Below the pieces are notes generated by a model. It was given only the letters and a program-made list of their open reading frames with translations, was not told the DNA's origin and did not search any database. DNA of 64,000 bases. It comes from Malacoraja senta. Lineage: Eukaryota. Position 1 is the first letter of the stretch. Each line of letters starts with the position of its first letter. The position numbers and the translations under genes were made by a program. Below, piece by piece: positions 51-63,933 of this stretch. The DNA is taken from the NCBI GenBank assembly GCA_038087875.1, contig CM075988.1:23066001-23130000 (forward strand), in the 5' to 3' direction.

Positions 51-371
51 ATTGCAGGATCTCCTGCCTACGCTTCAATGGATTACGAATATTCCACCCA
101 GCGTGTTGCATTGTCGCCACAAGACTTCTGTCCACCTTCGCACTTGGAACCTAAGTCCTTTTACCCGACTTCGGAAGAGTACTTCGCCCACCAACACTAC
201 AGCTGCACGTCAGCTATCTGCTCCATCTTTTCCTGCATGCCAGACAACATGGAGATGGGCTCGGTGTCTGAAAACGGGTCCTTCACAATCCCAGACTACA
301 GGGACTATTCATCGGGATTTCTCACAGAGGATCTCTGGAGGGGAACCCTAAGTGAATGTTTGGACTATTGA
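51..371 (+). CDS. POU2AF3: Last coding exon of a POU2AF3 (OCA-T2/COLCA2)-like POU class 2 coactivator
   Basis: Acceptor ttcctattag|ATT at 50/51. Reads IAGSPAYASMDYEYSTQRVALSPQDFCPPSHLEPKSFYP...HQHYSCTSAICSIFSC...TEDLWRGTLSECLDY*, which resembles the recalled C-terminus of human OCA-T2 (IPGSP...SLDYSYSP...HAQYSC...SICYCASC...DFYKRE). Convergent with POU2AF1, as in the human 11q23 cluster. Confidence 0.8.
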   Translation: MAGSPAYASMDYEYSTQRVALSPQDFCPPSHLEPKSFYPTSEEYFAHQHYSCTSAICSIFSCMPDNMEMGSVSENGSFTIPDYRDYSSGFLTEDLWRGTLSECLDY

Positions 372-14396: not shown

Positions 14397-14402
14397 TTTA
14401 TT
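14397..14402 (-). terminator. Candidate polyadenylation signal for the long ankyrin-containing POU2AF1 transcript
   Basis: AATAAA on the minus strand at the far end of an AU-rich, largely unique block downstream of the stop at 18263. A second AATAAA lies at 15284-15289. Confidence 0.4.
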
Positions 14403-16155: not shown

Positions 16156-16170
16156 TATTTCACAGAAATA
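16156..16170 (-). promoter_or_regulatory. Roquin constitutive decay element (CDE)-type stem-loop in the putative 3' UTR
   Basis: Minus strand TATTTC-TGT-GAAATA: perfect 6-bp stem with a UGU triloop matching the UCYRYGA core. Sense orientation, 2.1 kb after the stop. Confidence 0.55.
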
Positions 16171-18262: not shown

Positions 18263-18328
18263 CTAGGATGTGGCATTGCGATGGTTTGATCCTGAGCCAA
18301 CCCGTCCTTTCTTCAAGAGATGCCTTAT
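18263..18328 (-). CDS. Terminal coding exon of the ankyrin isoform ([21 protein letters not shown])
   Basis: Acceptor ctttacag|ATA; TAG at 18263-18265. Resembles the IkBNS C-terminus LRQLLKRSR. Confidence 0.8.
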   Translation of the reverse strand: MRHLLKKGRVGSGSNHRNATS

Positions 18329-21300
18329 CTGTAAAGCCATAAACATATTCACAATAAGCTTTAATAAAATCATTTCTCATGCTGAATTACAGTCCCGGAT
18401 AGATAATAAGCAAATCAATGTCAAGGTGACCTGCTGCTTTCAATAGAAGGTCTGTGTTAGTCTGTAATCTGTGGTGGTGGCCTTGAATATGACAAGGTTA
18501 AGGGCCTGTCCCACTTGGGCGTCATTTGCGGTCATTTACGCGACATCATTACGCACGTGATGCGCATGACGCACGCACGGTGCGTGGTGACGTAGGCAGT
18601 GACGCACGGTTGCGCGCGGCGTTCCAGGATTTTGGGATTCACAAAATCTTCGCGCGCCATCTGCATGACGCGCAAATGACGCCCATGTGGGACAGGCCCT
18701 TTAGTCTTTTTTTTGCTAAATTCAACAGGTTTGATTACATGAGGAACAGATACAGAGATACAGCTACAGGACCTCATATTCTGCTTGGGTAGCTTACAAC
18801 CCAATGATATGAACATTGAATTCTCCAATTTTGGGTACCTGCCCTAACTACCTCCACTGGCAACTCATTCCATACACCCACCACCCTTTAGAAAGACTAA
18901 TGGGCCTGTCCTACTTAGGCTATTATATAGGCGACTGCCGGCGACTGTCATAGTCGTAGCAGGTCGCCGAAAAAACGGCGACTGGACCCCCCTTCAACGT
19001 AAAATTTGAAATAGAATCATTAGGTTAACAACAACAAAAAACGAAGTCAGCACCGGCGACAACCTACGTCACCTGGCGACAACTACGACAGCACCTACGT
19101 CAGGAGATGTCAAGCTACGCTCATTGGCGTCAAACACACTGTCGCCGACTGTCTCCGAAACATTTTCAACACCAGACGTAACGACTCTTTGGGCGACTGA
19201 GGAGACTACTCACGACCATACAGACGACCATGTGGCGACAGCCTAGTCGCCTGTAGTCGCCGAAAAAAATTGCCTAAGTGGGACAGGCCCATTAGGATAT
19301 CTTTGAACAAATCTGGATATGGAGATTGGGTGGGAAAATGGTATTTGCATCAAAGTTCAGTAATGGTGCAGCAGGATCGAGGATCCTAACACAACTTTTT
19401 ATGCTTTTATCTTCTACTGAGCTTTTATTCCTTTTATTATGTATGGTTTCGGAGAGTAGGGTATGAATTCTTACACGGAACCATGAAGAGCTGGGACAAC
19501 CATGGGAGAAGGATACATTTCCTGTGGTACCTCATTTGAATCCACAGGGATGGGCACGATATTCCCAAAAGGAATCTTAACCCTAACAGGTGGCAGCATT
19601 GCAGTGCACTTGGTCATAATACGAATAAAGGGGTAGGCCATTTAGAACGGAGATGAGGAAAAACCTTTTCACACAGAGAGTTGTGAATTTGTGGAGTTCT
19701 CTGCCACAGAAGGCAGTGGAGGCCGATTCACTGGATGCATTCAAAAGAGAGTTAGATTGAGCTCTTAGGGCCAACGGAAACAAGGGGTATGGGGAGAAGG
19801 CAGGAACGGGGTACTGATTGTGGATGATCAGCCATGATCACATTGAATGGCTCAAAGGGCCGAATGGCCTACTCCTGCACCTATTGTCTATGTATGGGAT
19901 GGTGAATGGCTACAATCATTACAAGAAATGGATGACTTGCTCACAAGAGATTTTTACTTTAGTTTAGAGATACAGCGCGGAAGCAGGCCCTTTGGCCCAC
20001 CGTGTCCGTGCCAACCAGCGATGCTCGCTCATTAACACTATCCCACACACGCTAAGGACAATTTACATTTATAGCAAGCCAATTAACCTGCAAACCTGTA
20101 CATATATTTAGAGGGATGAGAGGGGATCTCATTGAAACATATAAGATTGTTAAGGGCTTGCACACGCTAGAGGCAGGAAACATGTTCCCGATGTTGGGGG
20201 AGTCCAGAACCAGGGCCCACAGTTTAAGAATAAGGAGTAAGCCATTTAGAACGGTGACGAGGAAACACTTTTTCTCACAGAGAGTGGTGAGTCTGTGGAA
20301 TTCTCTGCCTTAGAGGGCGGTGGAGGCGGGTTCTCTGGATGCTTTCAAGAGAGAGCTAGATAGGACTCTTAAAAATAGCGGAGTCAGGGGATATGGGAAG
20401 AAAGGCAGGAACGGGGTACTGATTGGGGATGATCAGCCATGATCACATTGAATAGGGGTGCTGGCTCGAAGGGCTGAATGGCCTACTCCTGCACCTATTG
20501 TCTATTGTCTATCTTTGGAATGTGGGAGGAAACCAAAGTGCTCGGAGAAAACCCACGCGGTCACGGGGAGAACGTCCAAACTCCACACAGACAGCACCCA
20601 TGGTCAGGATCGAACCCTGGGTCTCTGGCAGTGCAAGCGCTGTTAAAGCAGCAACTCTACCGCTGCGCCACCATGCCGCCCTAATCCTCTTCCTCACCTG
20701 ATCTCCCTGTTCCCCCGGCTGCACCAGATGAATGGGTTGGTCATTCTCCAGGTTTCGGATGCTGGGGTCTGCCCCGTGGTACAAAAGCAGTTTAATTATT
20801 TTCTCCTGGTTTCTCTCGTGGTGAAGACCAGCAGCCATGTGCAAAACGGTGTTACCATGAGCCTAGGAGAAAGCAAAAAATTAAATTGTCATTTCTATAT
20901 TTTGTAATTACTAATTCTTTGTTAAATTCAGTTTAGTTTTAGTTTAGTTTAAAGATACAGCACGGAAACACCGAGTCCGACCGCGCCGACCAGCGATCCC
21001 CGCACACGAGCACTGTCCTACACACACTAGGGACAATTTACAATTTTTACCAAAACCAATGAAGAGACCAACCCTGCATGTCTTTGGTGTGTGAGAGGAA
21101 ACCGGAGTGTGGGAAGAACGTACAAATTCAGTACAGGCAACACCCATAGTCAGGATCGAACCTGGGTCTCTGGCGCTGTGAGGCAGCTGCTCTACCGCTG
21201 CGCTGCAGTGCTAGATTCTTTTTGATTGTGTCAAACAGTGAGAACTGGAGGATGTGCAGTAGCTGGTGAGGGCACGAGGAGGACCTATATTGTCGCCCAC

Positions 21301-24300
21301 TTCACCAGCAACAAAGGACAGCGTGTGTTCCAGGACTCTTCCTGCTGTAGCAGCAGGTAGAGAGATAATGTCAGCCAACATTGCTCATTCAAGTTTTGCA
21401 GACTCTCTTGTGCTCTGTCCGCCAAGGCCTGCTGGATCTCCCATTGCTAACCATTTCAACTCCCCTTCTTATTCCCTTTCTGTCCTGTGTCTCCTCCATT
21501 GCTACATGCAAGCTGGAGGAACAGCACCTTATCTTCCCCTTGGCTAGCTTGCAAACTAATGGTGTAGGAAGGAACTGCAGATGCTGATTTACACCAAAGA
21601 TAGACACAAAATGCTGGAGTAACCCAGCGGGACAGGCAGCACATCTGGAGAGAAGGAATGGGTGACGTTTCGGGTCGAGACCCTTCTTGAGACTCTACAA
21701 ACTAATGATATGAACATTAAATTCCCCAATGTTAGGTAACTAAGTTACTACAACCCACCCACTTCCACCCCCCCCTTCCTTCCCTGTGCCCCATTTAGAT
21801 TTCCACCCGTTTCTCCCCTTTGCCCTCTTCCCGTCCTATTCAACCGGTATTTCTTCATTTGGCTTCACTATTCACACCTCCCTGTCCTTATCTCACACTT
21901 TTGTCTTTTTCATTTGCAGAGGCCACAGTTGAAGAATAAGGAGTAAGCCATTTCGAGCGGAGACGAGGAAACACTTTTTCTCACAGAGAGTGGTGAGTCT
22001 GTGGAATTCTCTGCCTCAGAGGGCGGTGGAGGCAGGTTCTCTGGATGCTTTCAAGAGAGAGCAAGATAGGGCTCTTAAAGATAACGGAGTCAGGGGATAT
22101 GGGGAGAAGGCAGGAATGGGGTACTGATTGGGGATGATCACCCATGATCACATTGAATGGCTCGAAGGGCCGAATGGCCTACTCCTGCACCTATTGTCTA
22201 TTGTCTATTGATTATTGTCCATTTCTCTCCTACCATTTGATCACCCCTCACTAGTATCCACACGTCATTTTCCAAGCTTTGTCATGCCCCTCCTCTCTTC
22301 CAGCTCTCTCTCCCCCCTCCACTACAAAAAGTCAGAAGGGTCCAAACCTGAAACGTCACCTATCCATGTTCTCCCGAGGTTCTGCCTGAACCACTGACTT
22401 TCTCAAGCACTTTGTATTTTATTGCTCCTGCATGAGCTAACTTGCATGAATTTACCTGTAAGCTGTTTAATCACTTAGGAAATGGCAAATGGCTCAGGTG
22501 CCTGAACAAGCCTTGCAGCAGTCATTAGGTTTTGGTGGCAGATGCTGGAATCTATAGCAAGGGAAAAGAAAAGCTGCTGGTGGAACTCAGCAGGTCGAGC
22601 AGCAACTGTGGAGGGAGAAGGGTCTCGACCCGAAAACTCATCCATTCCTTCTCTTCAGAGATGCTGCCTGTCCCGCTGAGTTACTCCAGCATTTTGTGTC
22701 TATCTGTGGAGGGAAATGGAACAACCACGTTTCAGGTAGAGCCCTTTAATCTAGATAGACAAAAATGTTGGAGAAACTCAGCGGGTGAGGCAGCATCTAT
22801 GGAGCGAAGGAAATAGGCAACGTTTCGGGTCGAAACCCTTCTTCAGACAGATACCTTTAATCTAGATTTTTGGTTTCCTCCCACACTCCAAAGATGTACA
22901 GATTTGTAGGTTGTTGTAATAAATGTGAATTGTCCCTAGAGTGGTAGTGTGCGGGGATCGGTGGGCCGAAGGGCCTGTTTCCACGCTGTATCTCTAAACT
23001 AAACTAAACTATGGACATGGGAAAACCTCTTAGTTCATTCTAACATTGCGGAAATCTGGCATGGTGTGGCCTTGATGTAATTTCAGAATTTCAGACACAT
23101 CATAAGTGGATATCTCATAAATGTCCACTGGAAATGATCAGCCATGATCACATTGAATGGCGGTGCTGGCTCGAAGGGCCAAATGGGCTACTCCTCCACC
23201 TATTATCTATTGTCTATTGAAACACCTTGGGTGGAGAACAAATTCCAAGCTAACCGGAGGCAAATCCACACGTCATTGGGAAGTGGGAGGAAACCGGTGC
23301 ACCCTGAGGAAACCCACGCGGTCACAGGGAGAACATGGATACTCCACACACAGATGGCACCCGAGGTCAGGATTGAACCCGGGTCTCTGGCGCTGTGAGG
23401 CAGCACCTGCAGCACTGTGCTGGCCAAAATATAAATTAAAGTATTTTATTTAAACATTAAACTATCAAAGAATCTAACCAATGTGTTGTCCCACTATAGT
23501 TATATTATGTTACGAGTGGACGTCGCTAACATCACAAACCTTCATGTTGATAAATTCGGGTGAGCAGAAGATGCCACTGAGCTTGAGGAAATAATCCAGT
23601 AACAGCAAGTTCCCTTCCTGAACGGCAAAGTGCACCACTGTCTTATTGCTCTTCACGTCCTGTTTACAGAAAGGAGAACAGTTGACTTTGCCACTTGTTG
23701 CTGCGGATGTTCCTGGTTCAGAGCCATGCTACACTTCTCTGTGCATTGTTACAAATGCTAACCATCAGCCTCACCTTAGAGTCATAGAGTCACAGAGTAA
23801 TATAGTGTGGAAACAGGCCCTTCGGCCCAACCTGCCCACACTGGCAAACATGTCCCGGCTACACTAGTCCCACCTGCCTGCGCTTGGTCCATATCCCTCC
23901 AAACCTGTCCTATCCATGTAACTGTCTAACAGTTTCTTAAACATTGGGATAGTCCCAGCCTCAACTACCTCATCTGGCAGCTTGTTCCATACACCCACCA
24001 CCCTTTGTGTGAAAGAAGGAACTGCAGATGCTGGAGAATCGAAGGTAGACAAAATTGCTGGAGAAACTCAGCGGGTGCGGCAGCATCTATGGAGCGAAGG
24101 AAATAGACAACGTTTCGGGCCGGAACCCTTCTTCAGTCTGAAGAAGGGTTTCGGCCCGAAACGTTGCCAATTTCCTTCGCTCCATAGATGCTGCCGCACC
24201 CGCTGAGTTTCTCCAGCAATTTTGTCTACCCTTTGTGTGAAAAAGCCTTGACGGTAATCTACTCAATTCCCAGAGTTTGTGGTGTCAGGTGCCACCCCGA

Positions 24301-27300
24301 GTACAAATCCTGTGCAGTACCAAGGTAATGATGCAGGGAGAACTTGTTAACACTAGTCAGGAACAATTAAACCTTCTGGTACAACATTCCTAGAATAGTA
24401 GGGTCATTGAGTCATTCAGCGCGGGAACATGTTGTCCATGCTGCCCATCTACGCTAGTCCCACATTCCCACGTTGACCCTTATCCCTCTAAACCTTTCCT
24501 ATCCATGTACATGCCTAAATCTCTACATAATTAAAAGTCTCATCTTGTATGTATGTATGTATGTATGTATGTATGTATGTATGTATGTATGTATGTATGT
24601 ATGTTCCCAAAATACAGCCAAAACGGTACACGATAGAGCAACAATTTTAAGGACGCCTCACTCACCATTGGCCTGCGGTGTGCAGTAGCAAGTTACGTTC
24701 GATTTTACAAAGTAATTCCCTTTATAAACCTTAATTTACTTTCTACTGAGAACGACACAAGTTTGAACGCGGTAGACGCGTCTGCGCAGTGCGCTCCCAC
24801 TTGCCGGGCCCGTCAGCCGCGCCTGCGCAGTTGGGGGAGGGTTGCCCGTAAGTGCACAGTGTGTACTTGACTGGCATCACAACGGGAACCAAACAGGTCG
24901 CCACAACTGGGACCCAACGGGTCCACGGGTCGTCTAGTGGCTTCTAAATGCTGTTATAGTGTCTGCCTTCGCTATTTCCACTGGCAGCTTATTCCATGTA
25001 CCCACCATCTTCAGTGTGAAAAATATACCTCTTGGGTTTCTATTCATTCTTTCCCCTCTCACTTTAAACCCATGCCCTCTAGTTCTTGATTCCCCTCCCC
25101 TGGGAAAGAGACTTTGTGGATTCACCCATGTATCCCCATCACAATTTGCAGCAAACTTAAAATCTCATTAAAAAAATATATATCCAGAGACACCTCTCCA
25201 AATAAAACAGGCAATCAATGTAAATTGCCCGTGTTATGATGACTACAATAAGGCTAATGTTTGGAAAACAATGAAGAAAGCTTTGTTTCTAGCCTGGCTG
25301 GAGTGTACACAGAATAATAAGGCATAATATTCGAGGAAAATTCCCCATGCAAGTGCCAGCAAGTTTTAAAGGAATGGGTGACGTTTCGGATCGAACCCTT
25401 CTTCAGTCTTCACCCGAAACGTCACATATTTCTTTTCTCTACGGATGCTGCCTGACCCGCTGAGTTAATCCAGCATTTTGAGTCTATCTTTTTTTAAGTT
25501 GGGTAGTTCTTCTAAACAAGTTACCTGGCTGATTATTAAGGCTCCCATTTCTATCAGTAACCGTATGCAGGACTCCAGTTGCTCAGCTTTACACTGCAGC
25601 TCATCTTGCCTCTGTGGTATCAGGTCAGGATCATAAAAGAGTTCCCGATAAACGGAGTTGTGAGAGATAACTGCGCAATGCAAAGGGGTGAGCCCTGAAA
25701 CACAAGAACGGGAGGTTAATTCCACGACAGGCAGGCAGGCAGGCAAACTTGCAACAAAACCGCGAACATGACAACAACATCTAAACCACAAGACCGACTG
25801 AGCCGCATGTTCGAGCATGTGATGGAAAACTGACGACGTTGGTGTAATTATTGGCCTTCACTGTGCCATGAATTATTTAGCCATAGTTACGTTCTGTGAT
25901 ATCTTGGAGGAGGAGAGATTGTAAAGGTTTCCATAATATGATAATGATTTTCGCATTAATATTTAATTGCCAATAATTATCGGGTCCTGCAGACACGTAC
26001 GAGCTGGGAGTGTTCAGAAGTGTTATGTTTTAATAGAATTGCTTTTGGCAGCCTAGGATAAACAGCAATCGATCCACCATCGCAGATTAGACAACAGCAT
26101 AGATGGCATTAAGTTAAAACAAAGACTCCAATTGTAGGGAAGCTGCATTGTCGGTTGAGGGTGTGGGGCAATAAGGATATCTCTTGAACGTTTCTTTTTA
26201 AAAAACTATTAGTTTATTAAGCAGAATTGGACAATTTCTTGGAAGGTCGACACAACTGATCTATTTGTGACCTTGCAATATAGTCACCTTAATTTCTACG
26301 GCCAGAATCACGTTGAGTGCTAGCTGGCATTTCCAATGACTGATGGACAGCAGAAATCTGGCATCAATCATTCCTCCCACTCACCATTTCTCATTGGTAA
26401 AAGGCGAATAAGTGATGCTGCTGGCATTAGATGTTATTAGCTACAAGGAGAGTTTAGTTTTTTGGGTAGGTTTCGAGATACAGTGTGCAAACAAGCACTT
26501 TGGCCCACCGAGTCCGCACCGACCAACAACCGCCCCATACACTAGTTCTCGCCTACATACTGGGGTAAATTTACAGAAGCCAAGTAACCTACAAACCTGC
26601 ATGTCTTTGGAATGTGGGCAGAATAATAGATAATAGACAATAGACAATAGGTGCAGGAGTAGGCCATTTGGCCCTTCGAGCCAGCACTGCCATTCAATGT
26701 GATCATGGCTGATCATCCCCAATCAGTACCCCGTTCCTGCCTTCTCCCCATATCCCCTGACTCCGCTATTTTTAAGAGCCCTATCTAGCTCTCTCTTGAA
26801 AGCATCCAGAGAACCTGCCTCCACCGCCCTCTGAGGCAGAGAATTCCACAGACTCACCACTCTGTGAGAAAAAGTGTTTCCTCGTCTCCGTTCTAAATGG
26901 CTTACTCCTTATTCTTAAACTGTGGCCCCTGGTACTGGACTCCCCCAACATCGGGAACATGTTTCCTGCCTCTAGCGTGTCCAAGCCCCTAACAATCTTA
27001 TGTGTTTCAATGAGAATCCCTCTCATCCTTCTAAACTCCAGAGTGTACAAGCCCAGCTGCTCCATTCTCTCAGCATATGACAGGCCCTCCATCCCGGGAA
27101 TTAACCTTGTTCCCTGGGAATCAGGAGCACCTGGAGAAAACCCACACGGCCACAGGGAGAAGGTACAAACTCCTCCACAGAACTACTCCTCCACAGAAGA
27201 TTATATTTGAGTTGCTACAGATGGAAATCGTTCGGACGTCACTAATTTGGTAAGAGCATTTATTTTTAATGCAGTATTCTGAAATTTAAAAAAATCTTAA

Positions 27301-54300: not shown

Positions 54301-57300
54301 AAGGAATGGTTGACGTTTCGGGTCCAGACCCTTCTTCAGTCTGGGAGTGAGGGGAACAGGAGAACGAGAGGTGGATGGTACTCAAGGGGAAATTAATGAA
54401 AAACATGCAGAAAGCATTTTGGAAACGTCATCCCTGCCACCCATTCCTTCTCTCCAGAGATGCTGCCTGTCCCGCTGAGTTAAAGAGTGCCCATGGTAGA
54501 CTCACGAGTCACTACGGTAAACCCACGGGCTACTACGTTCTTACGACGAGTTTAAAAGTTTAAAATTTTTACTTCAAGAGTAAATTTGACTCATGGAAAT
54601 CTTTCATCATGTTGAAAGATTTTTACGAGTTAACAAGTTTCCCGAGTACCTGCCGTTAGCGTTACGAGTTCCGACGTTCCCGCTACGTTAATTCTACGTG
54701 ATTACCACGAGTTTGATTTTAAACTCGGGATCACTCGTGGGTGGACTCGCACCGTGAGACAGGGGTTTAATCAAGGACATGACATACATTTCCTTGATAA
54801 CAATGGCTGATTGTGTGTCCCACATTCCCTTGATTATCTTTGCTTTCTGCATATCTTCCATTCATTTCTCCTAAGTACCATCTATATCTCCAGTTCCCCT
54901 TTCCCCTGACTCTCAGTCTGAAGTCTCGACCCGAAACGTCACCTCTTCCTTCTCTCCAGAGATGCTGCCTGTCCCGCTGAGTTACTCCAGCTATTCATGC
55001 CTGTCTGTGAGACTTGCTGTTGTGAGTGACTGCCACGTGAGAGACAGCTGGCAGTGTGCTGACCAGTGAGTGGAGTGACACTTCACATCATGGACCAGAA
55101 ATATTTTAAATCAAAAACAAAGTGCTGGAGAAATTCATGAGCCAGGCAGCATCTGCGGAGGGAAATGGACAGACAACTTTTCGGGTCGGGATCATGCTTC
55201 CAAGTGAGGAAGGATCCCACCTTGTAACAGTCTCTGTCGATATCCCTCCATAGTTGGTACTGAACAGCCATGTTCCTCCAGCACTTTTTGTCAGCGTTTG
55301 TAGGGTCCCGACCGGAAACATCACCTACGTATCCATAGGCTCTACATGTGCGATGAGTACTCTGTGGACTATGTTTCATATCTGTTATGCTGCAGCACGT
55401 AAAAATGTTATTGCTCCATTTTGGGACAGTCTTGACTCTTGCCTGACCCGCTGAGTTACTCGAGTACACAAAAATGCTGGAGAAACTCAGCGGGTGCAGC
55501 AGCATCTATGGAGCGAAGGAAATAGGCAACGTTTCGGGCCGAAACCCTTCTTCAGACTGATAGGGGGTGGGGAGAAGAAAGGAAGAAAGGAAAAAAGGCG
55601 GAGGAGGAGCCCGAGGGCTGGGGGATGGGAGGAGACAACCAGAGGGCTGATGAAGGGGAGGGGACAGCAAGGGCTAGCAGAATTGGGAGAATTCAATGTT
55701 CAATTACTCGAGTACTTTGTGTTTAGCTCAGCTATTAAACCTGGTCAGCATGGATGGGTTGGGCTGAAGGGCCTGCTTCTGTGTGATTAAAAACATGACT
55801 CACTAAAGACTTCTCCATTTTGTAATCAACAACAGTGAGTTTAGTTATGAAACATTCACATATTTGCATTTGATTTCTTTGGAATTATTTTAAAATTATT
55901 TAATTCATTTTAATGCAGCATTAAAAGAAGTGCCTCAGCAAATGTTACATGATCATGGGCTGATATGTAAACAATTTAAACTGTAGCCAGAGTTTAGCAG
56001 AGGTTTAATCTGGAATAATAGTTGATATTAAAAATATATATTTCTAGTGTCTAAGTCGTCATAGAAAAATAATCACTTGCTGCAAATACATTTCCAAGCT
56101 GTAGCTCTGAACTAAACCAAACTGCACCAAACTGCACTAAACTAAACTGAATTAAACTAAGCTGCATTAAACTACTCTAAACTACACTACAAGCATTGTG
56201 TTGAGCTCATAGGCTCCCACTATTAAAATAAATGCTAAATATGGTCACCCTGTGACAAGCAGTTTCAACTCAATCAAGACCAGTGATAATGGAAATGTAC
56301 CTTTGGGATGTTTTAAATGTATGTCTTTGTGCTGAATGCCAAATGTGACGGGTTCGTAAATGCTTTTCAATGCCCGTGACAGATCGCTAACTGTACAGCA
56401 GGACGCTTCCTAAAGCGGTCTTTCGGTAAATTAAACCTGACAGATGTTTAACAAAAATGCAGTGAGTAGGTCTTGTCACTGTCGACAGATCGGTGTTGAG
56501 CAAACAGATCATGGCACACAGCTGATGGTCTTGCCTTAAGTCTTAAGCGTGGATCCAATTGATAAATGAACTATTGTCAAATAGAAAGTTAGGAATATGG
56601 GGCTGACATATAGTAACAAACACCAAGAGATCCAATAGAAACTTAGAAACATTGAAAATAGGCGGAGGAGTAGGCCATTCGGCCCTTCGAGCCTGCACCG
56701 CCATTCAATATGATCATGGCTGATCATCCAACTCAGTATCCTGTACCTGCCTTCTCTCCATACCCCCTGATCCCTTTAGCCACAAGGGCCACATCTAACT
56801 CCCTCTTAAATATAGCCAATGGACTGACCTCAACTACCTTCTGTGGCAGAGAATTCCAGAGATTCACCACTCTCTGTGTGAAAAATGTTTTTCTCATCTC
56901 GGTCCTAAAAGACTTCCCCCTTATACTTAAACTGTGACCCCTTGTTCTGGACTTCCCCAACATCGGGAACAATCTTCCTGCATCTAGCCTGTCCAACCCC
57001 TTAAGAATTTTGTAAGTTTCTGCAAGATCCCCCCTCAATCTTCTAAATTCTAGCGAGTACAAGCCGAGTCTATCCAGTCTTTCTTCATATGAAAGTCCTG
57101 ACATCCCAGGAATCAGTCTGGTGAACAATGTGTAGGAAGGAACTGCAGATGCTGGTTTACACCGAAGATAGACACAAAATGCTGGAGTAAAAGCCCTGTC
57201 CCACTATACGAGTTCATTCAAGAGCTCTCCCGAGTTTAAAAAAAAAATCGAACTCGTGGTAAGCACGTAGAATGTACGTAGCTGGTACGTCGGGGCTCGG

Positions 57301-60300
57301 GGACGTCTCTTAGCGGCTCGTAACGCTAACGGCAGGTACTCGGGAAACGCGGTAAGCTCCGGGAGACTCGTGAAGATTATTCAACATGTTGAAAAATGTC
57401 CACGAGAGCCCCGAGTACCTACGAGCGGCCATTACCGTAAATCTCCGAGTTCGAATCAGGGCAAACTCAGGAGAACTCTTGAATGAACTCATACAGTGGG
57501 ACAGGGCTTTAACTCAGCGGGACAGGCAGCATCTCTGGATAGAAGGGGTGATGTTTTGGGTCTAGATCCTTCTTCAGACTGAGAGTCAGGGGAGAGGAAG
57601 ACACAGAGGCAAGGAAGTGTAAGATGTGAAAACAAGACATCAAAGGAGATGCAGATCAAGGAAAATGTAGGATAGATCATTGCTAGCTAGGAGCAGGTGA
57701 CAACGAAGCATACAGAGATAAAATTTAATCAGGAGGTCAGTCGGACTGATCGGAGAACTAGGAAGGGGGAGGGATGGAGAGAGACCGAAAGCAAACGTTA
57801 CTTGAAGTCAGAGAAGTCAATATTCATACTCTTCCATCTACCTAAACTTGCAAGAAGCAACGTGACAAGAATGTATATAGATAGATACGAGGAACTGTAG
57901 ATTCTGATTAATACACAAAAGGGCAGGAATTGTTGGAGTAACTCAGCAGGTCAGGCAGCATCTCTGAAGAACATGGATAAGTGACGTTTCGGGTTAAGAC
58001 CATTCTTGACTCAACATGGATAGGTGACATTTCAGGTCGACACCCTTCTTCAGATTGAAGTCCTATCCATGTTCTCCAGGGATGCTGCTCGACCTGTTGA
58101 GTTTCTCCAGCATCTTGTGCCCTTTTGTGACAAGAATTCATGTCATCAGTAGGAGTTACAAGCTGCAAGCCCTCTCTAGCACCTTCCTCTATGGTCATAT
58201 AGCTGTGGCTCTCTGCACGACTACTACTCAACCTAGACATTCTGGCTTCCCCGCTGCTAGTGCAAAGTAACGTACGTGTCATTGTCTTCGTCTTGCTGCA
58301 GCAGCTTCTCAATGGGCATGTTGGCAATGGTTCTCCTGGCATCCTCCAGCTCCAGAAGTCCAGGCTCAGGGCTGGAAATGTTCAGAGGCACAAACTGGGG
58401 CGGCAGAGACGGCAAGGGGCTTGCCGGACACGGCGTCCCCGGTGCGGGTAGAGCCGAGAGCGTTTGGCACCAAGGAGAGTGATTGAGCGCCTGCTGCTGG
58501 CATGAAAGATCCATTTGCGGAAGACCAGCTGGCGTGGGCACCCTCGACTGTGGAGAAACAAAAACGGGTTTGATCAACTGACAGTTCACAGGTTCACAAG
58601 TTACAGGAGTTGAATTAGGCCATTTGGCCCATCGAGTCAATCATGGCTGATCTCTGCCTACTAATCCCATTCTCCCGCCTTCTCCCCATAACCCTTGACA
58701 CCCGTTCTAATCAAGAATATTTCTGCCTTTTTTGCATATCTTAGAAACATAGAAACATAGAAAATAGGTGCAGGAGGAGGCCATTCAGCCCTTCGAACCA
58801 GCACCGCCATTCATTGTGATCATGGCTGATCGTCCCCAATCGATAACCCGTGCCTGCCTTCTCCCATCTCCCTTGACTCCACTAGCCCCTCGAGCTCTAT
58901 CTAACTCTCTCTTAAATCCATCCAGTGACTTGGCCTCCACTGCCCTCTGTGGCAGGGAATTCCATAAATTCACAACTCTCTGGGTGAAAAAGTTTCACTC
59001 ATTTGTTCCTTTCATTCATTTGTTCCATATCTCTCTATGTCACCACTTATATCTCTCATTTCCCTTTCCCCTGACTCCCAGTCTGAAGAAAGGTCTCCAC
59101 CCGAAACGCCACCCGCTCTTTTTCTGCAGAGATGTTGCCTGCCCCGCTGAGTTACTCCAGCTTTTGGTGTCTTATCACTGATTACCCTCTGCTGGATTAA
59201 TGGTCAGGGCTCAGTTATCACTGGGTCCAGAGGGAGGGATATGGGAGGTAGGGGGCAGGGGGGGGGAGAAAGTGGGGGGATAAAAGATGGCTGCGGAGGC
59301 CAAGTCATTGAGTATTTTTAAGGCGGAGGTTGACAGATTCTTGATTAGTACGGGCGTCAGGGGTTACGGGGTGAAGGCAGGAGAATGGGGTTGAGAGGGA
59401 AAGATAGATCAGCCATTATTGAACGGCGGAGTAGACTCGATGGGCCGAATGGCCTAATCCTGCCTCTATGACTTGTGAACATACGGAAATGGAAAATGAG
59501 GGGATGAGAGTAAGGAGGAGAGTAAAGGAACAGGGTGGTGGGGGGGTAGGTGGGAGGAATGTGTGCGTGAGGGAAAGGAACACGAGGGGGTAGGGGGGGT
59601 ATAACTTGAAAGGGGGCAATTCAACGTTCATACCCACAGGTTGTAACAACCTGGTGTTGAGCCATTGCAGTACCAGGGGCGTGCTGTTGGGGGTGATGTT
59701 GGTCAGACAAGGCAATAAAACGAGAGGCTCCTTTCCTTCTCAGATGGGTGTAGAAATTCCCCTGGCATTATTTCACGTAAGAGAGTGATATCCTTCCCTC
59801 TCACTCCCCCACCGCACCCAACCACCCCAAGAGCCTTCGAAATACTCAATGAACATCACAAAATAGCCAGGCAATCTGACCATGTATTGAAACTGGCTGT
59901 GTGCAAACAGACCATGGCTCTTCCTATTTACTATGTTTCTATGTTTCTATGTTTCTATTACAACAGTGTCTACAAGGCAAAGGCACTTGGTTGGTCTGCA
60001 TGGCTATTTTGATGTCCCGGGACTGAGATTGATGCTAAATAATTGCAAATAATTTATTTTTCCATCTGCAGCTTCTAAATTACAAATGTGTTACCAATAT
60101 GCATTATTATCTTTGTACTTGCAGCATATCAGCATAGCAGCCACCCACACTGATTAGCGTGAATATTAATTGCTCCAACACTTTCCACAGTGAAAGGGAG
60201 TTAAGTGATGATACGTTGACATTATTTGAAATGATAAGCAGTGATGGAGTTAAACTCGGCAGCTTTTCAATCACCATTTCAATATGGCATAGACTAAGCG

Positions 60301-63300: not shown

Positions 63301-63933
63301 GCTACTAGTCCAGTGACAATCCTGCTCACAGCAGCATCACCAGCGCATAAACTCAGACAAACGCACAAAAACAAATTATACATAAATGACACTGAAGAAG
63401 GGTCTCGACCCGAAACTTCACCCATTCCTTTTCTCCACAGATGCTGCCTGCCCCGCTGAGTTACTCCAGCATTTTGTATCTATCTTCGGTTTAAACCAGC
63501 ATTTGCAGTTCCTTCCTACACAATGACACTTAACTTATTTGTTTGTGCACTACACGACTCTACGATTGCAAGGCATCAAAGGTGTTCTTTCCCCCATTCA
63601 TTGTACCCTTGGTGTGAGCGCGTGAAAACCCAAGACAGTATCCTACCTGGCAGTTCCCTGCGAAGTTGCTCTGCAATGGTTGCGGACTGTAAGACATGAC
63701 CGAGGGGGGCCCCAGCATTGTGTAGCTGGGACAGGCAGCTTGCATGCACATGTCTTGCATGTACGGTGAGTTGACGGCATCGTGCGAGGGGTAACTGGGG
63801 CAAGGTGACCACTGTGACACCGGCTGTAGGCTGGCAGAGGATGGCTGAGGCAGCCATGTAGTGTGAAAGGTTCCCTCCTCAGCAGGTTGCACTGGTGATG
63901 AAGCAGCATCTGTCTCATGGAACACCGGATGTC
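18263..63933 (-). CDS. POU2AF1: POU2AF1 (OCA-B) long isoform with C-terminal IkBNS/IkBzeta-type ankyrin domain, 5'-partial. Exons: 63647-63933, 58276-58547, 45907-46012, 43865-44011, 28475-28526, 25525-25694, 23540-23659, 20698-20862, 18263-18328
   Basis: Nine exons, all introns GT-AG with matching phases (0,2,0,0,1,0,0,0). Total 1385 nt with no internal stop. The first two exons match OCA-B and the last seven match the NFKBID-type ankyrin domain. The splice joining the two parts is inferred. Confidence 0.8.
18501..18700. mobile_element. PIF/Harbinger (Tourist-like) MITE
   Basis: TIRs agggcctgtcccac / gtgggacaggccct, with TTA on both flanks. Confidence 0.85.
18901..19291. mobile_element. PIF/Harbinger-type MITE
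   Basis: TIRs tgggcctgtcctacttaggc / gcctaagtgggacaggccca; flanks TAA and TTA. Confidence 0.8.
20698..20862 (-). CDS. Ankyrin exon, NFKBID-like ([55 protein letters not shown])
   Basis: tctcctag|GCT...CAG|gtgagg, 165 nt. AHGNTxLHMAA and GADPxxRNLENxQP are IkBNS/IkBzeta signatures. Confidence 0.92.
23540..23659 (-). CDS. Ankyrin exon, NFKBID-like ([40 protein letters not shown])
   Basis: aaacag|GAC...AAG|gtttgt, 120 nt. Matches IkBNS EIKSNKTVLHLAVQ...FVNMK. Confidence 0.9.
24044..24230. repeat. Near-perfect palindrome (93-bp arms) formed by inverted Penelope-like termini
   Basis: Arms centred on 24137. The insertion is flanked by the direct repeat accctttgtgtgaaa (24000-24014 and 24228-24242). 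Confidence 0.9.
24520..24937 (+). mobile_element. Non-autonomous Helitron carrying a (TATG)n microsatellite
   Basis: Inserted between A and T inside a CR1 tail. 5' TC, 3' CTAG, hairpin ggaccc-aac-gggtcc at 24910-24924, no TSD. Confidence 0.8.
25525..25694 (-). CDS. Ankyrin exon with the nuclear-IkB insertion ([57 protein letters not shown])
   Basis: gtttcag|GG...CAG|gtaact, 170 nt, phase 1 to 0. GLTPLHCAV followed by a long insert, as in IkBzeta/IkBNS. Confidence 0.92.
26630..27110 (-). mobile_element. CR1-type LINE 3' fragment
   Basis: [23 protein letters not shown]... ORF and (ctattgt)n tail. Confidence 0.85.
28475..28526 (-). CDS. Small ankyrin exon ([18 protein letters not shown])
   Basis: cttttgcag|ATG...GAAG|gtacgt, 52 nt, phase 0 to 1. 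DLEARDFEG matches the recalled IkBNS motif. Confidence 0.9.
29764..33187 (-). mobile_element. 5'-truncated L1-clade LINE (ORF2 RT and C-terminal zinc domain, 3' UTR, A-rich tail) with 18-bp TSD
   Basis: TSD attcacagcttgtttctt at 29746-29763 and 33188-33205. Motifs [35 protein letters not shown] (31821-31832) and CDKC...H...C. Confidence 0.95.
30183..33122 (-). pseudogene. L1 ORF2 remnant in a single frame with two nonsense codons
   Basis: The 379-aa and 508-aa ORFs share a frame and are separated by TAG (31983-31985) and TGA (31851-31853). The endonuclease domain is missing through truncation. Confidence 0.9.
34390..35135 (+). mobile_element. Degenerate CR1-type LINE 3' end with nested fragment
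   Basis: [10 protein letters not shown] motif and a typical CR1 3' UTR ending ctctatgactctatg. Confidence 0.75.
39115..40310 (-). mobile_element. Non-autonomous Helitron containing a minisatellite array
   Basis: Minus-strand 5' end tctctataactaaaagtctcaacttg matches the start of the 24520 element. 3' CTAG, inserted at A|T, hairpin partly deleted. Confidence 0.75.
39236..39908. repeat. Minisatellite, about 11 units of roughly 50-75 bp
   Basis: Unit caagcacagggcaggccaaacaactcattgcattttcatttcatttccatttccattgcagttt with variable (catttc)n content. Confidence 0.95.
42465..42990 (-). mobile_element. Rex1/Babar-like LINE fragment
   Basis: Ends [12 protein letters not shown] with a (cgtat)n-type tail; related copy at about 46505-46745. 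Confidence 0.55.
43130..43590 (+). mobile_element. CR1-type LINE 3' fragment
   Basis: 129-aa ORF ([18 protein letters not shown]...WNELPEEV). Confidence 0.85.
43865..44011 (-). CDS. Ankyrin exon, NFKBID-like ([49 protein letters not shown])
   Basis: gttcctag|ACA...CAG|gtaagc, 147 nt. Matches IkBNS TPLLVAAAANQPLIVEDLL...LHVAATYG. Confidence 0.93.
44636..45393 (+). mobile_element. Internally deleted Gypsy-like LTR retrotransposon with a rearranged 5' LTR
   Basis: ATCTC on both flanks (44631-44635, 45394-45398). Both LTRs start tgtgatgtttggtgga (44636, 45165). Polypurine tract ggaaagggggaa precedes the 3' LTR. The internal [10 protein letters not shown] resembles the end of Gypsy pol. Confidence 0.8.
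45907..46012 (-). CDS. First ankyrin exon ((T)[35 protein letters not shown])
   Basis: cttttgcag|A ATC...AAG|gtatac, 106 nt, phase 2 to 0. Matches IkBNS TLLHLFAARGLRWAAYAAAE...RRLDIREHKGK. Confidence 0.93.
46067..46335. mobile_element. Partial Harbinger-type MITE, same family as 57191-57509 (another partial copy at about 54483-54767)
   Basis: One TIR (aacccctgtcccacggtacgagttcattc) plus shared internal sequence. Confidence 0.7.
49163..49253. repeat. (TTTAG/TTCAG)n microsatellite, a retroelement tail
   Basis: Read directly. Confidence 0.85.
50673..50921. mobile_element. PIF/Harbinger-type MITE
   Basis: TIRs agggcctgtcccacttggcgatt / aatcgctaagttggacaggccct; TTA on both flanks. Confidence 0.85.
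56636..57126 (-). mobile_element. CR1-type LINE 3' fragment
   Basis: 131-aa [37 protein letters not shown]... Confidence 0.88.
57191..57509. mobile_element. Harbinger-type MITE inserted in a Penelope-like terminus
   Basis: TIRs aagccctgtcccact / agtgggacagggctt and TAA TSD. Removing it restores the common gctggagtaactcagcggg sequence. Confidence 0.9.
58257..58547 (-). CDS. POU2AF1: POU2AF1 exon equivalent to the mammalian last exon. Read-through ends DNDTYVTLH* at 58257; the internal donor after 58276 leads to the ankyrin exons
   Basis: tctccacag|[13 protein letters not shown]...[43 protein letters not shown] aligns by eye with human OCA-B PWPQPLSTLP...PQFVQLPISIPEPVLQDMEDPRRAASSLTIDKLLLEEEDSDAY. 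Confidence 0.93.
   Translation of the reverse strand, partial: SRVPTPAGLPQMDLSCQQQALNHSPWCQTLSALPAPGTPCPASPLPSLPPQFVPLNISSPEPGLLELEDARRTIANMPIEKLLQQDEDNDTYVTLH
60290..60720 (+). mobile_element. Penelope-like retroelement 3' part (GIY-YIG endonuclease C-terminus and terminal repeat)
   Basis: EHLR...[11 protein letters not shown]...[21 protein letters not shown]. Similar pieces near 3935-4075 (-), 11845-11975 (-) and 21385-21560 (+). Confidence 0.8.
63647..63933 (-). CDS. POU2AF1: POU2AF1 internal exon (equivalent to the mammalian penultimate exon)
   Basis: tcttcag|GA...CAG|gtagga, 287 nt. [18 protein letters not shown]...[22 protein letters not shown] matches human OCA-B WLSQPTPATLQPLAPWTP...DMYVQPVCPSYTVVGPSSVLTY. 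Confidence 0.93.

What the first reader, a model, noticed from the sequence alone, without database searches (positions are those of the whole stretch)
18263..63933. OCA-B (POU2AF1) continues in frame into a complete nuclear-IkB ankyrin domain: candidate dual POU/NF-kB coactivator
Seen: two clear OCA-B exons are followed on the same strand by seven intact, phase-compatible GT-AG exons adding about 274 aa of ankyrin repeats with IkBNS (NFKBID)/IkBzeta signatures. The join GAC AC|gtacgt...ttgcag|A ATC gives [20 protein letters not shown], a complete first ankyrin repeat (IkBNS has LLAQDEEGDTLLHLFAARG). Known: mammalian OCA-B is a 256-aa OCT1/OCT2 coactivator without ankyrins, while IkBzeta has both an OCA peptide and p50-binding ankyrins. 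Inference: this fish keeps an OCA-B that could bridge octamer-bound POU2 factors and NF-kB p50/p52. Automated annotation may split or mislabel it as a separate 'NFKBID-like' gene. The OCA peptide itself lies outside the window and was not seen.
Basis: partly seen in the sequence, partly recalled or inferred. Interest (0 to 1): 0.95.

Follow-up and report, generated by a model that had tools for sequence, protein, structure and literature searches.

The report
Skate OCA-B gene with IkB ankyrin tail
This skate's OCA-B (POU2AF1) gene can splice in frame onto seven exons encoding an IkB-type ankyrin domain, an old and conserved arrangement already present in many database gene models but, as far as I could find, not discussed in papers.

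Summary
On the minus strand, exons 63933-63647 and 58547-58276 are OCA-B (Pfam PF09310). Seven GT-AG, phase-compatible exons (46012 to 18263) add 274 aa of ankyrin repeats.

The OCA peptide exon lies 6.4 kb beyond the window and matches the solved OCA-B peptide (1CQT).

The same fusion is annotated in about 20 sharks, rays and a chimaera, and in gar, sturgeon, bowfin, turtles, alligator and birds (518-600 aa). It is named either POU2AF1 isoform X1 or 'NFKBID-like'. Nearest-skate annotations split the locus into a short POU2AF1 and an ankyrin-only 'NFKBID'.

A tree places these ankyrin domains as an old sister clade of true NFKBID. Six species carry both.

The last ~30 residues encoded by the second OCA-B exon fold as the cap of the ankyrin domain. 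That domain superposes on IkBzeta bound to p50 (9BOR).

Reading through the exon-5 donor gives a stop after 5 codons, which is the classic short OCA-B.

Caveats: no RNA data could be laid. This assembly also has one extra A in the OCA exon, which breaks the frame unless a 43-nt exon is skipped.

Verdict: a real, conserved gene of the IkBzeta-like OCA-plus-ankyrin kind, with function inferred.

The parts
63647..63933 (-). Exon 4 of the gene (first OCA-B exon in the window). It starts with 2 nt that complete a Gly codon and encodes GHPVFHETD...NFAGNCQ.
   Evidence: PF09310 E 2.1e-25, profile positions 63-147 of 249. tblastn to P0004 residues 80-175 at 82% identity. Splice sites.
58276..58547 (-). 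Exon 5 (second OCA-B exon). It encodes SRVPTPAG...[12 protein letters not shown] and ends with AC, the first two bases of the Thr codon that the first base of exon 6 completes. Its last ~30 codons encode the N-terminal cap of the ankyrin domain.
   Evidence: PF09310 E 1.8e-20, profile positions 151-237 of 249. 97% identical to Leucoraja POU2AF1. In the AF2 model of orthologue P0004, the blocks for residues 241-270 have pLDDT 96/91/92. P0004 residues 242-266 align to residues 19-43 of the IkBzeta ankyrin chain 9BOR_A.
58257..58275 (-). Read-through tail of the short isoform. If the exon-5 donor (CAC|GTACGT) is not used, the frame continues T-YVTLH and stops at TAG.
   Evidence: ORF 58257-58640 and sequence. 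Skate RefSeq short models end [11 protein letters not shown] or YVTLQ, and the turkey short isoform ends [18 protein letters not shown]. This donor is the only one of 8 in-window donors without G at -1.
46013..58275 (-). Intron 5 (12.3 kb), the decision point between the short and long isoforms. It is also the possible site of an internal first exon for ankyrin-only transcripts.
   Evidence: Coordinates. The Leucoraja ankyrin-only model P0375 starts MSTETITR and then continues with exon 6. No match to that peptide was found on the minus strand of 144 kb.
45907..46012 (-). Exon 6, which completes the Thr codon and then encodes [35 protein letters not shown] (helices of ankyrin repeat 1).
   Evidence: tblastn to P0004 residues 267-302 at 94% identity. 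Sequence.
43865..44011 (-). Exon 7, encoding [49 protein letters not shown].
   Evidence: Pfam Ank E 4.2e-10..
28475..28526 (-). Exon 8 (52 nt), encoding [17 protein letters not shown] plus 1 nt.
   Evidence: tblastn E 1.4e-5.
25525..25694 (-). Exon 9, encoding [57 protein letters not shown]. It includes the long insert typical of nuclear IkBs.
   Evidence: Weak Pfam Ank hit, E 0.0026, below the cut-off.
23540..23659 (-). Exon 10, encoding [40 protein letters not shown].
   Evidence: No Pfam hit when scanned alone.
20698..20862 (-). Exon 11, encoding [55 protein letters not shown].
   Evidence: Pfam Ank E 4.3e-9..
18263..18328 (-). Exon 12 coding part, encoding [21 protein letters not shown] followed by the stop codon.
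   Evidence: tblastn to P0004 residues 518-539 at 95% identity..

Best explanation
The window holds most of a skate's POU2AF1 (OCA-B) gene in what appears to be its ancestral form. It is a 12-exon gene of about 94 kb on the minus strand.

Architecture:
- The N-terminus carries the OCA peptide. This exon lies 6.4 kb outside the window.
- A long disordered OCA-B region follows (exons 4 and 5).
- The C-terminus is an IkB-type ankyrin domain of about 300 residues.

Two products from one donor. Exon 5 ends at a weak donor (CAC|GTACGT).
- If the donor is read through, translation stops 5 codons later and gives the classic short OCA-B of about 270 aa.
- If it is spliced to exon 6, the product is a protein of about 526-539 aa.

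The fold itself is split by this junction. The last ~30 residues of exon 5 form the cap of the ankyrin domain, and the first-repeat motif DxDxDT|ILHxxA straddles the intron.

Inferred mechanism. The OCA peptide docks on octamer-bound POU2F1/2, as in 1CQT. The ankyrin domain binds NF-kB p50/p52 dimers, as IkBzeta does in 9BOR. The long isoform would then be a second IkBzeta-like dual cofactor, with splice choice at exon 5 setting the ratio of plain OCA-B to dual cofactor.

Shown here: gene structure, conservation, paralogy and predicted fold. Inferred only: transcription of the junction in this species, and all binding.
For: Gene model. It is colinear with the 539-aa Pristis protein over all 12 exons. 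Splice sites are canonical and, from exon 4 onward, in frame.

Domains. PF09310 is found on exons 4 and 5. Of five ankyrin exons scanned, Ank passes Pfam's cut-off on exons 7 and 11 and is sub-threshold on exon 9. The OCA exon hits 1CQT_I at E 5.7e-7, and hits POU2AF2 and POU2AF3 peptides more weakly.

Fused orthologues:
- 22 of the 39 hits to exon 5 carry both PF09310 and Ank families.
- 36 of the 120 listed hits to the ankyrin part carry both.
- Cluster members add many more shark and ray, turtle, bird, gar and sturgeon models. These include paired long and short isoforms of one gene, for example Gopherus X1 (519 aa) and X2 (256 aa).

Constraint. The ankyrin part is more conserved than the OCA-B part at every distance tested: 91.2 against 79.7% with Pristis, 71.5 against 56.7% with Callorhinchus, and 65.0 against 52.4% with Gopherus.

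Tree. On 37 rows and 299 columns, rooted on NFKBIZ, the fused-type ankyrins form one clade (90/96) that follows the species tree. It is sister to NFKBID proper (84/92). The quick tree of 44 rows gives 95 and 92.

Fold. The AF2 model of P0004 has a helix at 43-56 (OCA), disorder at 56-228, and mean pLDDT of 90 or more in almost every 10-residue block from 241 to 520. The best PDB match is 9BOR_A, the IkBzeta ankyrin domain in complex with a p50 homodimer: TM 0.89, rmsd 2.2 A, 44% identity. By sequence the match is E 2.4e-69 over residues 242-525.
Against: The join is unconfirmed at the RNA level in this species.

The closest annotated species do not model the fusion:
- Leucoraja has P0001 (short) plus P0375 (ankyrin-only, starting MSTETITR).
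- Rhinoraja has P0003 plus P0040.
- Amblyraja has the short P0002, and no ankyrin model for it appeared among the listed hits.

Some bird, crocodile and turtle models are also ankyrin-only with their own short first exons. An internal promoter is therefore possible.

This assembly has one extra A in exon 2 (ACA AAC TCC against the relatives' reading NTNT-TPSSS). The 12-exon CDS is then 1624 nt and out of frame. Only skipping the 43-nt exon 3 restores a 526-aa ORF. I could not tell an assembly error from a real change.

The fused models in other species are automatic predictions. I did not see their transcript support.
Confidence: 0.75

Rival explanations
1. Two separate products only. The locus makes short OCA-B (ending in intron 5) and an independent IkBNS-like ankyrin-only protein from an internal promoter. 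On this view the fused ORF is a relic of shared ancestry that is rarely or never spliced in skates.
For: RefSeq splits the locus in the nearest skates (P0001 + P0375, P0003 + P0040). It gives ankyrin-only models with their own first exons in Vidua, Crocodylus, Pelodiscus and Geotrypetes. The exon-5 donor lacks G at -1.
Against: Ankyrin-only models start at exon 6. They therefore lack the ~30-residue cap that folds with the domain at pLDDT above 90 and that aligns inside the IkBzeta chain 9BOR_A. EKLLxxDEDNDT at the end of exon 5 is conserved from skate to birds. The Leucoraja first exon (MSTETITR) has no match in 144 kb here. Fused models exist in many species.
Confidence: 0.15
2. The ankyrin exons are simply this skate's NFKBID (IkBNS) gene lying next to POU2AF1, as the database name 'NFKBID-like' implies.
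For: The names in RefSeq. About 58% identity to NFKBID proper. A search of this genome with Pristis NFKBID (P0078) found only this locus, so it may be the only IkBNS-type gene the assembly holds.
Against: The window's ankyrins fall in the clade of fused proteins. They do not fall in the clade that holds platypus, lizard, tuatara, amphibian and teleost NFKBID. Six species carry one gene of each clade: Pristis, Narcine, Latimeria, Lepisosteus, Polypterus and Geotrypetes.
Confidence: 0.05
3. The gene is decaying in this species. The exon-2 frameshift is real and the OCA-containing protein is truncated after about 83 aa.
For: The extra A in exon 2 makes the 12-exon CDS 1624 nt, with a stop in exon 4. 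There is only one copy of the exon in the assembly.
Against: All other exons are intact and highly conserved: 91% identity to Pristis in the ankyrin part. Skipping exon 3 restores the frame. A single-base run-length error in an assembly is common (general knowledge).
Confidence: 0.05

Closest known systems
IkBzeta (NFKBIZ), the 'dual-use' coactivator of NF-kB and POU factors
   Same: One polypeptide with an N-terminal OCA motif, a long disordered middle and a C-terminal ankyrin domain. The orthologue's ankyrin model superposes on 9BOR_A (IkBzeta ankyrin domain bound to a p50 homodimer) at TM 0.89, rmsd 2.2 A and 44% identity. The OCA motif in IkBzeta is described in PMC12807641 (passages read).
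   Different: The N-terminal half is OCA-B proper (PF09310 over its whole length), not the IkBzeta N-terminus. The ankyrin domain groups with NFKBID, and NFKBIZ is the outgroup. The gene also has a built-in short isoform that stops just after the exon-5 donor.
Mammalian OCA-B / POU2AF1 (256 aa; OCA peptide solved in 1CQT)
   Same: OCA peptide: 17 identical residues plus 2 conservative (+) positions in the 25-column alignment to 1CQT_I. PF09310 spans the protein. The short read-through isoform ends within a few codons of the same point as the bird short form.
   Different: The skate gene continues into 274 aa of ankyrin repeats. That mammals lack these exons is recalled and was not tested here.
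IkBNS / NFKBID
   Same: Sister clade of the ankyrin domain, about 58% identical. Long NFKBID proteins also start MHWQK and keep a (P/Q)TV(K/R)(K/E)LLE-type half of the OCA helix in 12 of 13 proteins of that clade examined.
   Different: In the NFKBID proteins examined the YxGVRVK strand was not seen. PF09310 did not hit the one scanned here, P0078, and it is absent from the precomputed Pfam lists of those listed. NFKBID is a separate gene in six species that also have the fused gene.
Database models of the same gene, such as Pristis pectinata 'NF-kappa-B inhibitor delta-like' (539 aa), Callorhinchus XP_007905517.1 'POU2AF1' (518 aa), and bird and turtle 'POU2AF1 isoform X1' (518-519 aa)
   Same: Exon-by-exon colinear with the window. 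80-91% identical for Pristis and 52-65% for the turtle.
   Different: These are automatic predictions with unstable names. The gar and Callorhinchus records were renamed from POU2AF1 to NFKBID. The nearest skates are annotated as two genes.
Bcl-3 ankyrin domain (1K1A)
   Same: Same fold, TM 0.91 normalised to the target, rmsd 2.3 A.
   Different: 27% identity. No Bcl-3 sequence was included in the tree.

Membership tests
OCA-B / POU2AF1 (Pfam PF09310) | Match to the family profile above the curated cut-off | tested here: met
   Exon 4 scores 89.9 bits and exon 5 scores 73.8 bits against a cut-off of 25.7.
OCA-B / POU2AF1 (Pfam PF09310) | N-terminal OCA peptide (strand YxGVRVK plus helix PVKELLxRKR) that contacts the POU domain and octamer DNA | tested here: met
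   The exon at G000:C12:23136319-23136441, outside the window, encodes RPYLGVRVKDPVKELLKRKRK. It hits 1CQT_I at E 5.7e-7. Caveat: one extra A later in that exon shifts the frame relative to exon 3.
OCA-B / POU2AF1 (Pfam PF09310) | Orthology to named POU2AF1 | tested here: met
   Exon 5 is 97, 96 and 89% identical to POU2AF1 of Leucoraja, Amblyraja and Rhinoraja.
OCA-B / POU2AF1 (Pfam PF09310) | Binds OCT1/OCT2 on octamer DNA and coactivates | not testable with these tools
   Needs EMSA, co-IP or reporter assays.
Nuclear (atypical) IkB proteins (IkBzeta, IkBNS, Bcl-3) | C-terminal multi-repeat ankyrin domain with the IkB fold | tested here: met
   Pfam Ank passes its cut-off on 2 of 5 window ankyrin exons scanned (exons 7 and 11), is sub-threshold on exon 9, and is absent on exons 6 and 10. 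The model of the 91%-identical orthologue matches 9BOR_A at TM 0.89 and 1K1A at TM 0.91.
Nuclear (atypical) IkB proteins (IkBzeta, IkBNS, Bcl-3) | Binds p50/p52 homodimers in the nucleus | not testable with these tools
   Inferred only from similarity to the IkBzeta:p50 complex 9BOR.
NFKBID (IkBNS) orthologue | Falls in the clade with mammalian, squamate, amphibian and teleost NFKBID | tested here: not met
   It falls in the sister clade of fused proteins (90/96 and 95). Six species have both genes. No AU test was run.
OCA-plus-ankyrin dual cofactor (IkBzeta type) | OCA motif and ankyrin domain on one translated mRNA | tested here: inconclusive
   The ORF is continuous from exon 4 to the stop, and from the ATG if exon 3 is skipped. 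Orthologues are modelled as one protein. Transcription across the exon 5-6 join was not examined, and the exon-2 frame problem is unresolved.

The most novel reading that the evidence does not exclude
OCA-B is a cut-down nuclear IkB. POU2AF1, NFKBID and NFKBIZ would descend from one early-vertebrate gene that already joined an OCA peptide to a p50-binding ankyrin domain.

Most jawed vertebrates still make a long OCA-B-ankyrin protein from POU2AF1. That protein could couple octamer and kappaB control in lymphocytes. The textbook mammalian OCA-B would then be just the read-through isoform, left over after the ankyrin exons were lost.

Support seen here:
- NFKBID keeps MHWQK and half of the OCA helix.
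- The tail of OCA-B exon 5 is the cap of the ankyrin fold.
- A Cbl gene lies about 0.35 Mb away. This recalls the human pairs BCL3-CBLC, NFKBIZ-CBLB and POU2AF1-CBL (map positions recalled).
Probability: 0.5. Interest if true: 0.75.

Novelty: new member of a known kind. Interest (0 to 1): 0.55.

Why it matters
OCA-B is studied almost only in mouse and human, where it is a 256-aa protein without ankyrins. If the long isoform is made, then in sharks, ray-finned fishes outside teleosts, turtles, crocodilians and birds the B-cell coactivator gene also encodes an IkBzeta-like partner of NF-kB. Both are controlled by one splice choice.

That would place the 2024 finding of IkBzeta as a dual POU/NF-kB cofactor in an evolutionary frame. 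It would explain the odd conserved C-terminal tail of OCA-B as half of an ankyrin cap. It is also directly testable in chicken B-cell lines.

For annotation, it shows that 'POU2AF1' and 'NFKBID-like' labels in non-mammals often refer to one gene. True NFKBID is a different paralogue.

Tried and rejected
No junction or exon-2 read evidence could therefore be obtained.

Transcript-derived junction-spanning proteins. The search of shorter proteins with P0004 residues 222-325 gave 13 hits among 211 candidates, none listed with a run-assembly (Logan) source. The clusters read showed a Logan source only for two 256-aa short turtle forms and for a 178-aa chicken 'NFKBID'.

Internal first exon. The Leucoraja start MSTETIT was not found, either exactly or at 5 or more of 7 matches, on the minus strand of 144 kb.

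Roquin CDE-like loops (TTCYRYGAA) in the 3' region. There were 6 matches against 5.4 expected, and 48 of 100 shuffles did as well. Rfam on 12000-18400 gave only a chance-level miRNA hit at E 0.72.

Poly(A) hexamers after both stops were listed but are uninformative.

Synteny by Pfam. BTG hits on C12 lie 7 Mb away, and a Glyco_transf_22 gene lies at 17.9 Mb. Neither is adjacent, so no conclusion follows.

Paralogues of the OCA exon in this genome. Only the locus itself was found.

The ORF at 51-371 (+) had no Pfam hit and no convincing Atlas hit, best score 0.79.

Earlier scan notes held nothing relevant.

Literature. Six full-text searches found no paper describing an OCA-B/POU2AF1 protein with ankyrin repeats. 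The term sets were:
- POU2AF1 + NFKBID + ankyrin
- OCA peptide + NFKBIZ
- dual-use coactivator + POU
- OCA-B / ankyrin repeat / IkBNS
- POU2AF1 + ankyrin repeats + isoform
- OCA domain / ankyrin / POU2AF1 / NFKBIZ / ohnolog / paralog

Alpsoy et al. 2024 (PMC10960667) is not held. What I say of it is recalled, apart from its citation in PMC12074568.
Full report
**What is there**

The window is G000:C12:23066001-23130000 of a 1.94-Gb genome. By protein identity it comes from a skate. Exon 5 is 97% identical to Leucoraja erinacea POU2AF1, 96% to Amblyraja and 89% to Rhinoraja.

- Exon 4 (63933-63647) and exon 5 (58547-58276) hit Pfam PF09310, the OCA-B family, at E 2.1e-25 and 1.8e-20. They cover profile positions 63-147 and 151-237 of 249.
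- Exon 5 ends GAC AC|gtacgt. Exon 6 begins ttgcag|A ATC at 46012.
- Six more exons follow: 44011-43865, 28526-28475, 25694-25525, 23659-23540, 20862-20698 and 18328-18263. All acceptors are AG and all donors GT.
- One frame runs from exon 4 to a TAG at 18263. The seven exons encode 274 aa.

**The missing OCA peptide**

I fetched 80 kb upstream. tblastn with the 539-aa Pristis protein P0004 found three more exons, given here in window coordinates continued past 64000:
- exon 1 at 112646-112574, with the ATG;
- exon 2 at 70441-70319, encoding SSDQSQQRPYLGVRVKDPVKELLKRKRKNVENTNT;
- exon 3 at 68128-68086.

The exon-2 peptide hits the OCA-B peptide of the Oct-1/octamer complex, 1CQT chain I, at E 5.7e-7. 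It hits the newer POU2AF2 and POU2AF3 peptide entries more weakly.

One problem remains. After NTNT this assembly has one more A than the reading frame of the Amblyraja, Rhinoraja and Pristis proteins requires. The 12-exon CDS is then 1624 nt, with a stop in exon 4. Leaving out the 43-nt exon 3 gives a clean 526-aa ORF. The exon occurs once in the assembly. I could not look at reads, so an assembly error and a real change remain equally open.

**It is a conserved gene, already modelled elsewhere**

Of the 39 proteins that matched exon 5 (among 459 candidates), 22 carry both PF09310 and ankyrin families and 17 carry PF09310 alone. Of the 120 best-listed hits to the ankyrin part of P0004, 36 carry both.

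Fused models of 518-600 aa come from these groups:
- elasmobranchs and chimaera: Pristis, Narcine, Mobula, Heterodontus, Cetorhinus, Stegostoma, Scyliorhinus and Callorhinchus;
- ray-finned fishes: Lepisosteus, Acipenser, Huso and Amia;
- sauropsids: Gopherus, Alligator and many birds.

Partial models that still carry both families come from Latimeria, Polypterus and Polyodon. Cluster members add Hypanus, Hemitrygon, Carcharodon, Heptranchias, Hemiscyllium, Chiloscyllium, Rhincodon, Mustelus and several turtles and galliforms.

Long and short isoforms of one gene are modelled side by side, for example Gopherus X1 (519 aa) and X2 (256 aa). Names are unstable. The gar and Callorhinchus records were first called POU2AF1 and later NFKBID.

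In the nearest skates the locus is split.
- Leucoraja has POU2AF1 (P0001, 303 aa) and 'NF-kappa-B inhibitor delta' (P0375, 282 aa, MSTETITR followed by exon 6 onward). Both are on a contig of the same length.
- Rhinoraja has P0003 plus P0040.

**Constraint**

The 274 ankyrin residues are more conserved than the 187 OCA-B residues of exons 4-5 at every distance.

| Compared with | Ankyrin part (% identity) | OCA-B part (% identity) |
|---|---|---|
| Pristis | 91.2 | 79.7 |
| Narcine | 90.5 | 72.2 |
| Heterodontus | 86.5 | 71.1 |
| Callorhinchus | 71.5 | 56.7 |
| Lepisosteus | 60.2 | 43.9 |
| Gopherus | 65.0 | 52.4 |
| Lagopus | 62.4 | 53.5 |

No codon-level dN/dS could be computed, because no relatives' DNA is reachable with these tools.

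**What the ankyrin domain is**

I built a careful tree of 37 ankyrin regions (299 of 387 columns kept), rooted on four NFKBIZ proteins. It gives two sister clades inside a 100/100 group.
- One clade (90/96, 18 rows) holds all fused proteins and the window. It follows the species tree from chimaera to birds.
- The other clade (84/92, 15 rows) holds NFKBID proper. Its members are Pristis, Narcine, Polypterus, gar, three teleosts, lungfish, coelacanth, amphibians, Pogona and platypus (names).

A quick tree of 44 rows gives SH-aLRT 95 and 92. It places Leucoraja 'NFKBID' P0375 next to the window. It places a caecilian 'NFKBID-like' protein and the crocodile and softshell-turtle 'NFKBID' proteins in the fused clade. 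Tuatara falls in the NFKBID clade.

Six species have one gene of each clade: Pristis, Narcine, Latimeria, Lepisosteus, Polypterus and Geotrypetes. The ankyrin part is therefore an old paralogue of NFKBID, not its orthologue.

Three rows have long branches (platypus, bullfrog, Pogona), and I ran no AU test.

In this skate assembly a search with Pristis NFKBID proper found only the present locus. That may be loss, an assembly gap or limited search sensitivity.

**The junction splits a fold, not two domains**

An AlphaFold2 model of P0004 was made with a 30-sequence alignment (mean pLDDT 67.4, pTM 0.58). It shows:
- a helix at residues 43-56, the OCA helix, in a block with pLDDT about 74;
- disorder over residues 56-228;
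- a confident domain, with mean pLDDT of 90 or more in almost every 10-residue block from 241 to 520.

The domain includes helices 239-250 and 254-257, which are encoded by exon 5. Its best solved match is 9BOR chain A, titled 'IkappaBzeta ankyrin repeat domain:NF-kappaB p50 homodimer complex' (TM 0.89, rmsd 2.2 A, 44% identity). The Bcl-3 ankyrin domain 1K1A follows at TM 0.91.

By sequence, P0004 residues 242-525 align to 9BOR_A residues 19-305 at E 2.4e-69. The exon-5 tail [25 protein letters not shown] lies opposite VEQEESKLANISQDQFLSKDADGDT.

Models that begin at exon 6 lack this cap. The classic OCA-B C-terminus is the cap without its domain.

**Two isoforms from one donor**

If the exon-5 donor is read through, the frame gives T-YVTLH and a stop at 58257. 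Skate short models end YVTLY or YVTLQ, and the turkey short form ends YVLNHALSVEGL. The Pfam OCA-B profile runs about 12 positions past the junction.

This donor, CAC|GTACGT, is the only one of the eight in-window donors without G at -1. I take that as a hint of regulated use. This is inference.

**How it most likely works**

The following is inferred from families, not shown.
- The OCA peptide docks on POU2F1/2 bound to octamer DNA, as in 1CQT.
- The ankyrin domain binds p50 or p52 dimers, as IkBzeta does.
- The long isoform would act like IkBzeta, which PROSITE and Alpsoy et al. describe as carrying an OCA motif and ankyrins. For PMC12807641 I read passages. Alpsoy et al. is not held, and I saw only its citation in PMC12074568.
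- Splice choice at exon 5 would set plain OCA-B against the dual cofactor.

**Wider reading**

Twelve of the 13 long NFKBID proteins I examined keep a (P/Q)TV(K/R)(K/E)LLE-type motif near the N-terminus, and three of them (Pristis, Lepisosteus, Astyanax) also begin MHWQK or a close variant. The motif is the helix half of the OCA motif, without the YxGVRVK strand. An alligator NFKBIZ isoform has FQGVRVKNSVKELL.

Together with the tree, this fits one ancestral OCA-plus-ankyrin gene that gave rise to POU2AF1, NFKBID and NFKBIZ. A Cbl_N gene lies at C12:23.48-23.52 Mb, about 0.35 Mb upstream. From memory, human BCL3-CBLC, NFKBIZ-CBLB and POU2AF1-CBL lie in paralogous regions. I did not test this.

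**Known or new**

The protein architecture is public in many automatic gene models, and IkBzeta is a described example of the kind. Six full-text searches found no paper that mentions an OCA-B/POU2AF1 protein with ankyrin repeats. The library lacks most subscription journals, and supplements were not consulted.

I rate it a new member of a known kind. The window itself is an ordinary, well-conserved gene. The general point that non-mammalian OCA-B carries an IkB domain seems under-appreciated and is easy to test.

**What I could not do**

No RNA holder was listed for exon 5. The expression of the junction, the exon-2 base and any internal promoter all remain open.

Noticed in passing
G000:C12:23136319-23136441 (exon 2, 6.4 kb beyond the window's high end; L002:6319-6441): There is one extra A after the codons for NTNT, compared with the reading frame of the Amblyraja, Rhinoraja and Pristis proteins. 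The 12-exon CDS is 1624 nt and frameshifted. Skipping the 43-nt exon 3 restores a 526-aa ORF. This is either an assembly error or a real change.
   Followed up: partly
Proteins P0078, P0152, P0073, P0061, P0075, P0156, P0072, P0155, P0153, P0170 (relatives, not the window): All ten long NFKBID (IkBNS) proteins keep a (P/Q)TV(K/R)(K/E)LLE-type motif near the N-terminus. Three of them (P0078, P0073, P0075) also begin MHWQK or a close variant. The motif is the helix half of the OCA motif without the YxGVRVK strand. I saw no paper noting this.
   Followed up: partly
Whole genome G000: A search with Pristis NFKBID proper (P0078) found only the POU2AF1 locus and generic ankyrin genes. No separate NFKBID was detected in this skate assembly.
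   Followed up: partly
G000:C12:23480828-23515645: A Cbl_N-domain gene lies about 0.35 Mb upstream of the gene's first exon. It gave the only Cbl_N matches in the assembly.
   Followed up: no
window 30183-33203 (-): A LINE-type retroelement sits in the intron between exons 7 and 8. It has reverse-transcriptase ORFs of 406 and 555 aa broken between 31850 and 31983, in an AT-rich stretch (GC 0.29).
   Followed up: partly
window 39263-39910: A tandem array of a 64-nt unit, about 9 copies at 86% matches, with CATTTC microsatellite runs. It gives a spurious 307-aa open frame on the + strand.
   Followed up: partly
Many places, e.g. window 20509-20700, 27804-27992, 40700-40780, 47717-47875, 62993-63178: A dispersed short repeat whose translation reads ...[26 protein letters not shown]... 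recurs on both strands throughout the introns. It is probably a SINE.
   Followed up: no
window 51-371 (+): An open frame of 106 aa at the window's low end has no Pfam hit and no convincing Atlas match. It is probably not coding.
   Followed up: partly
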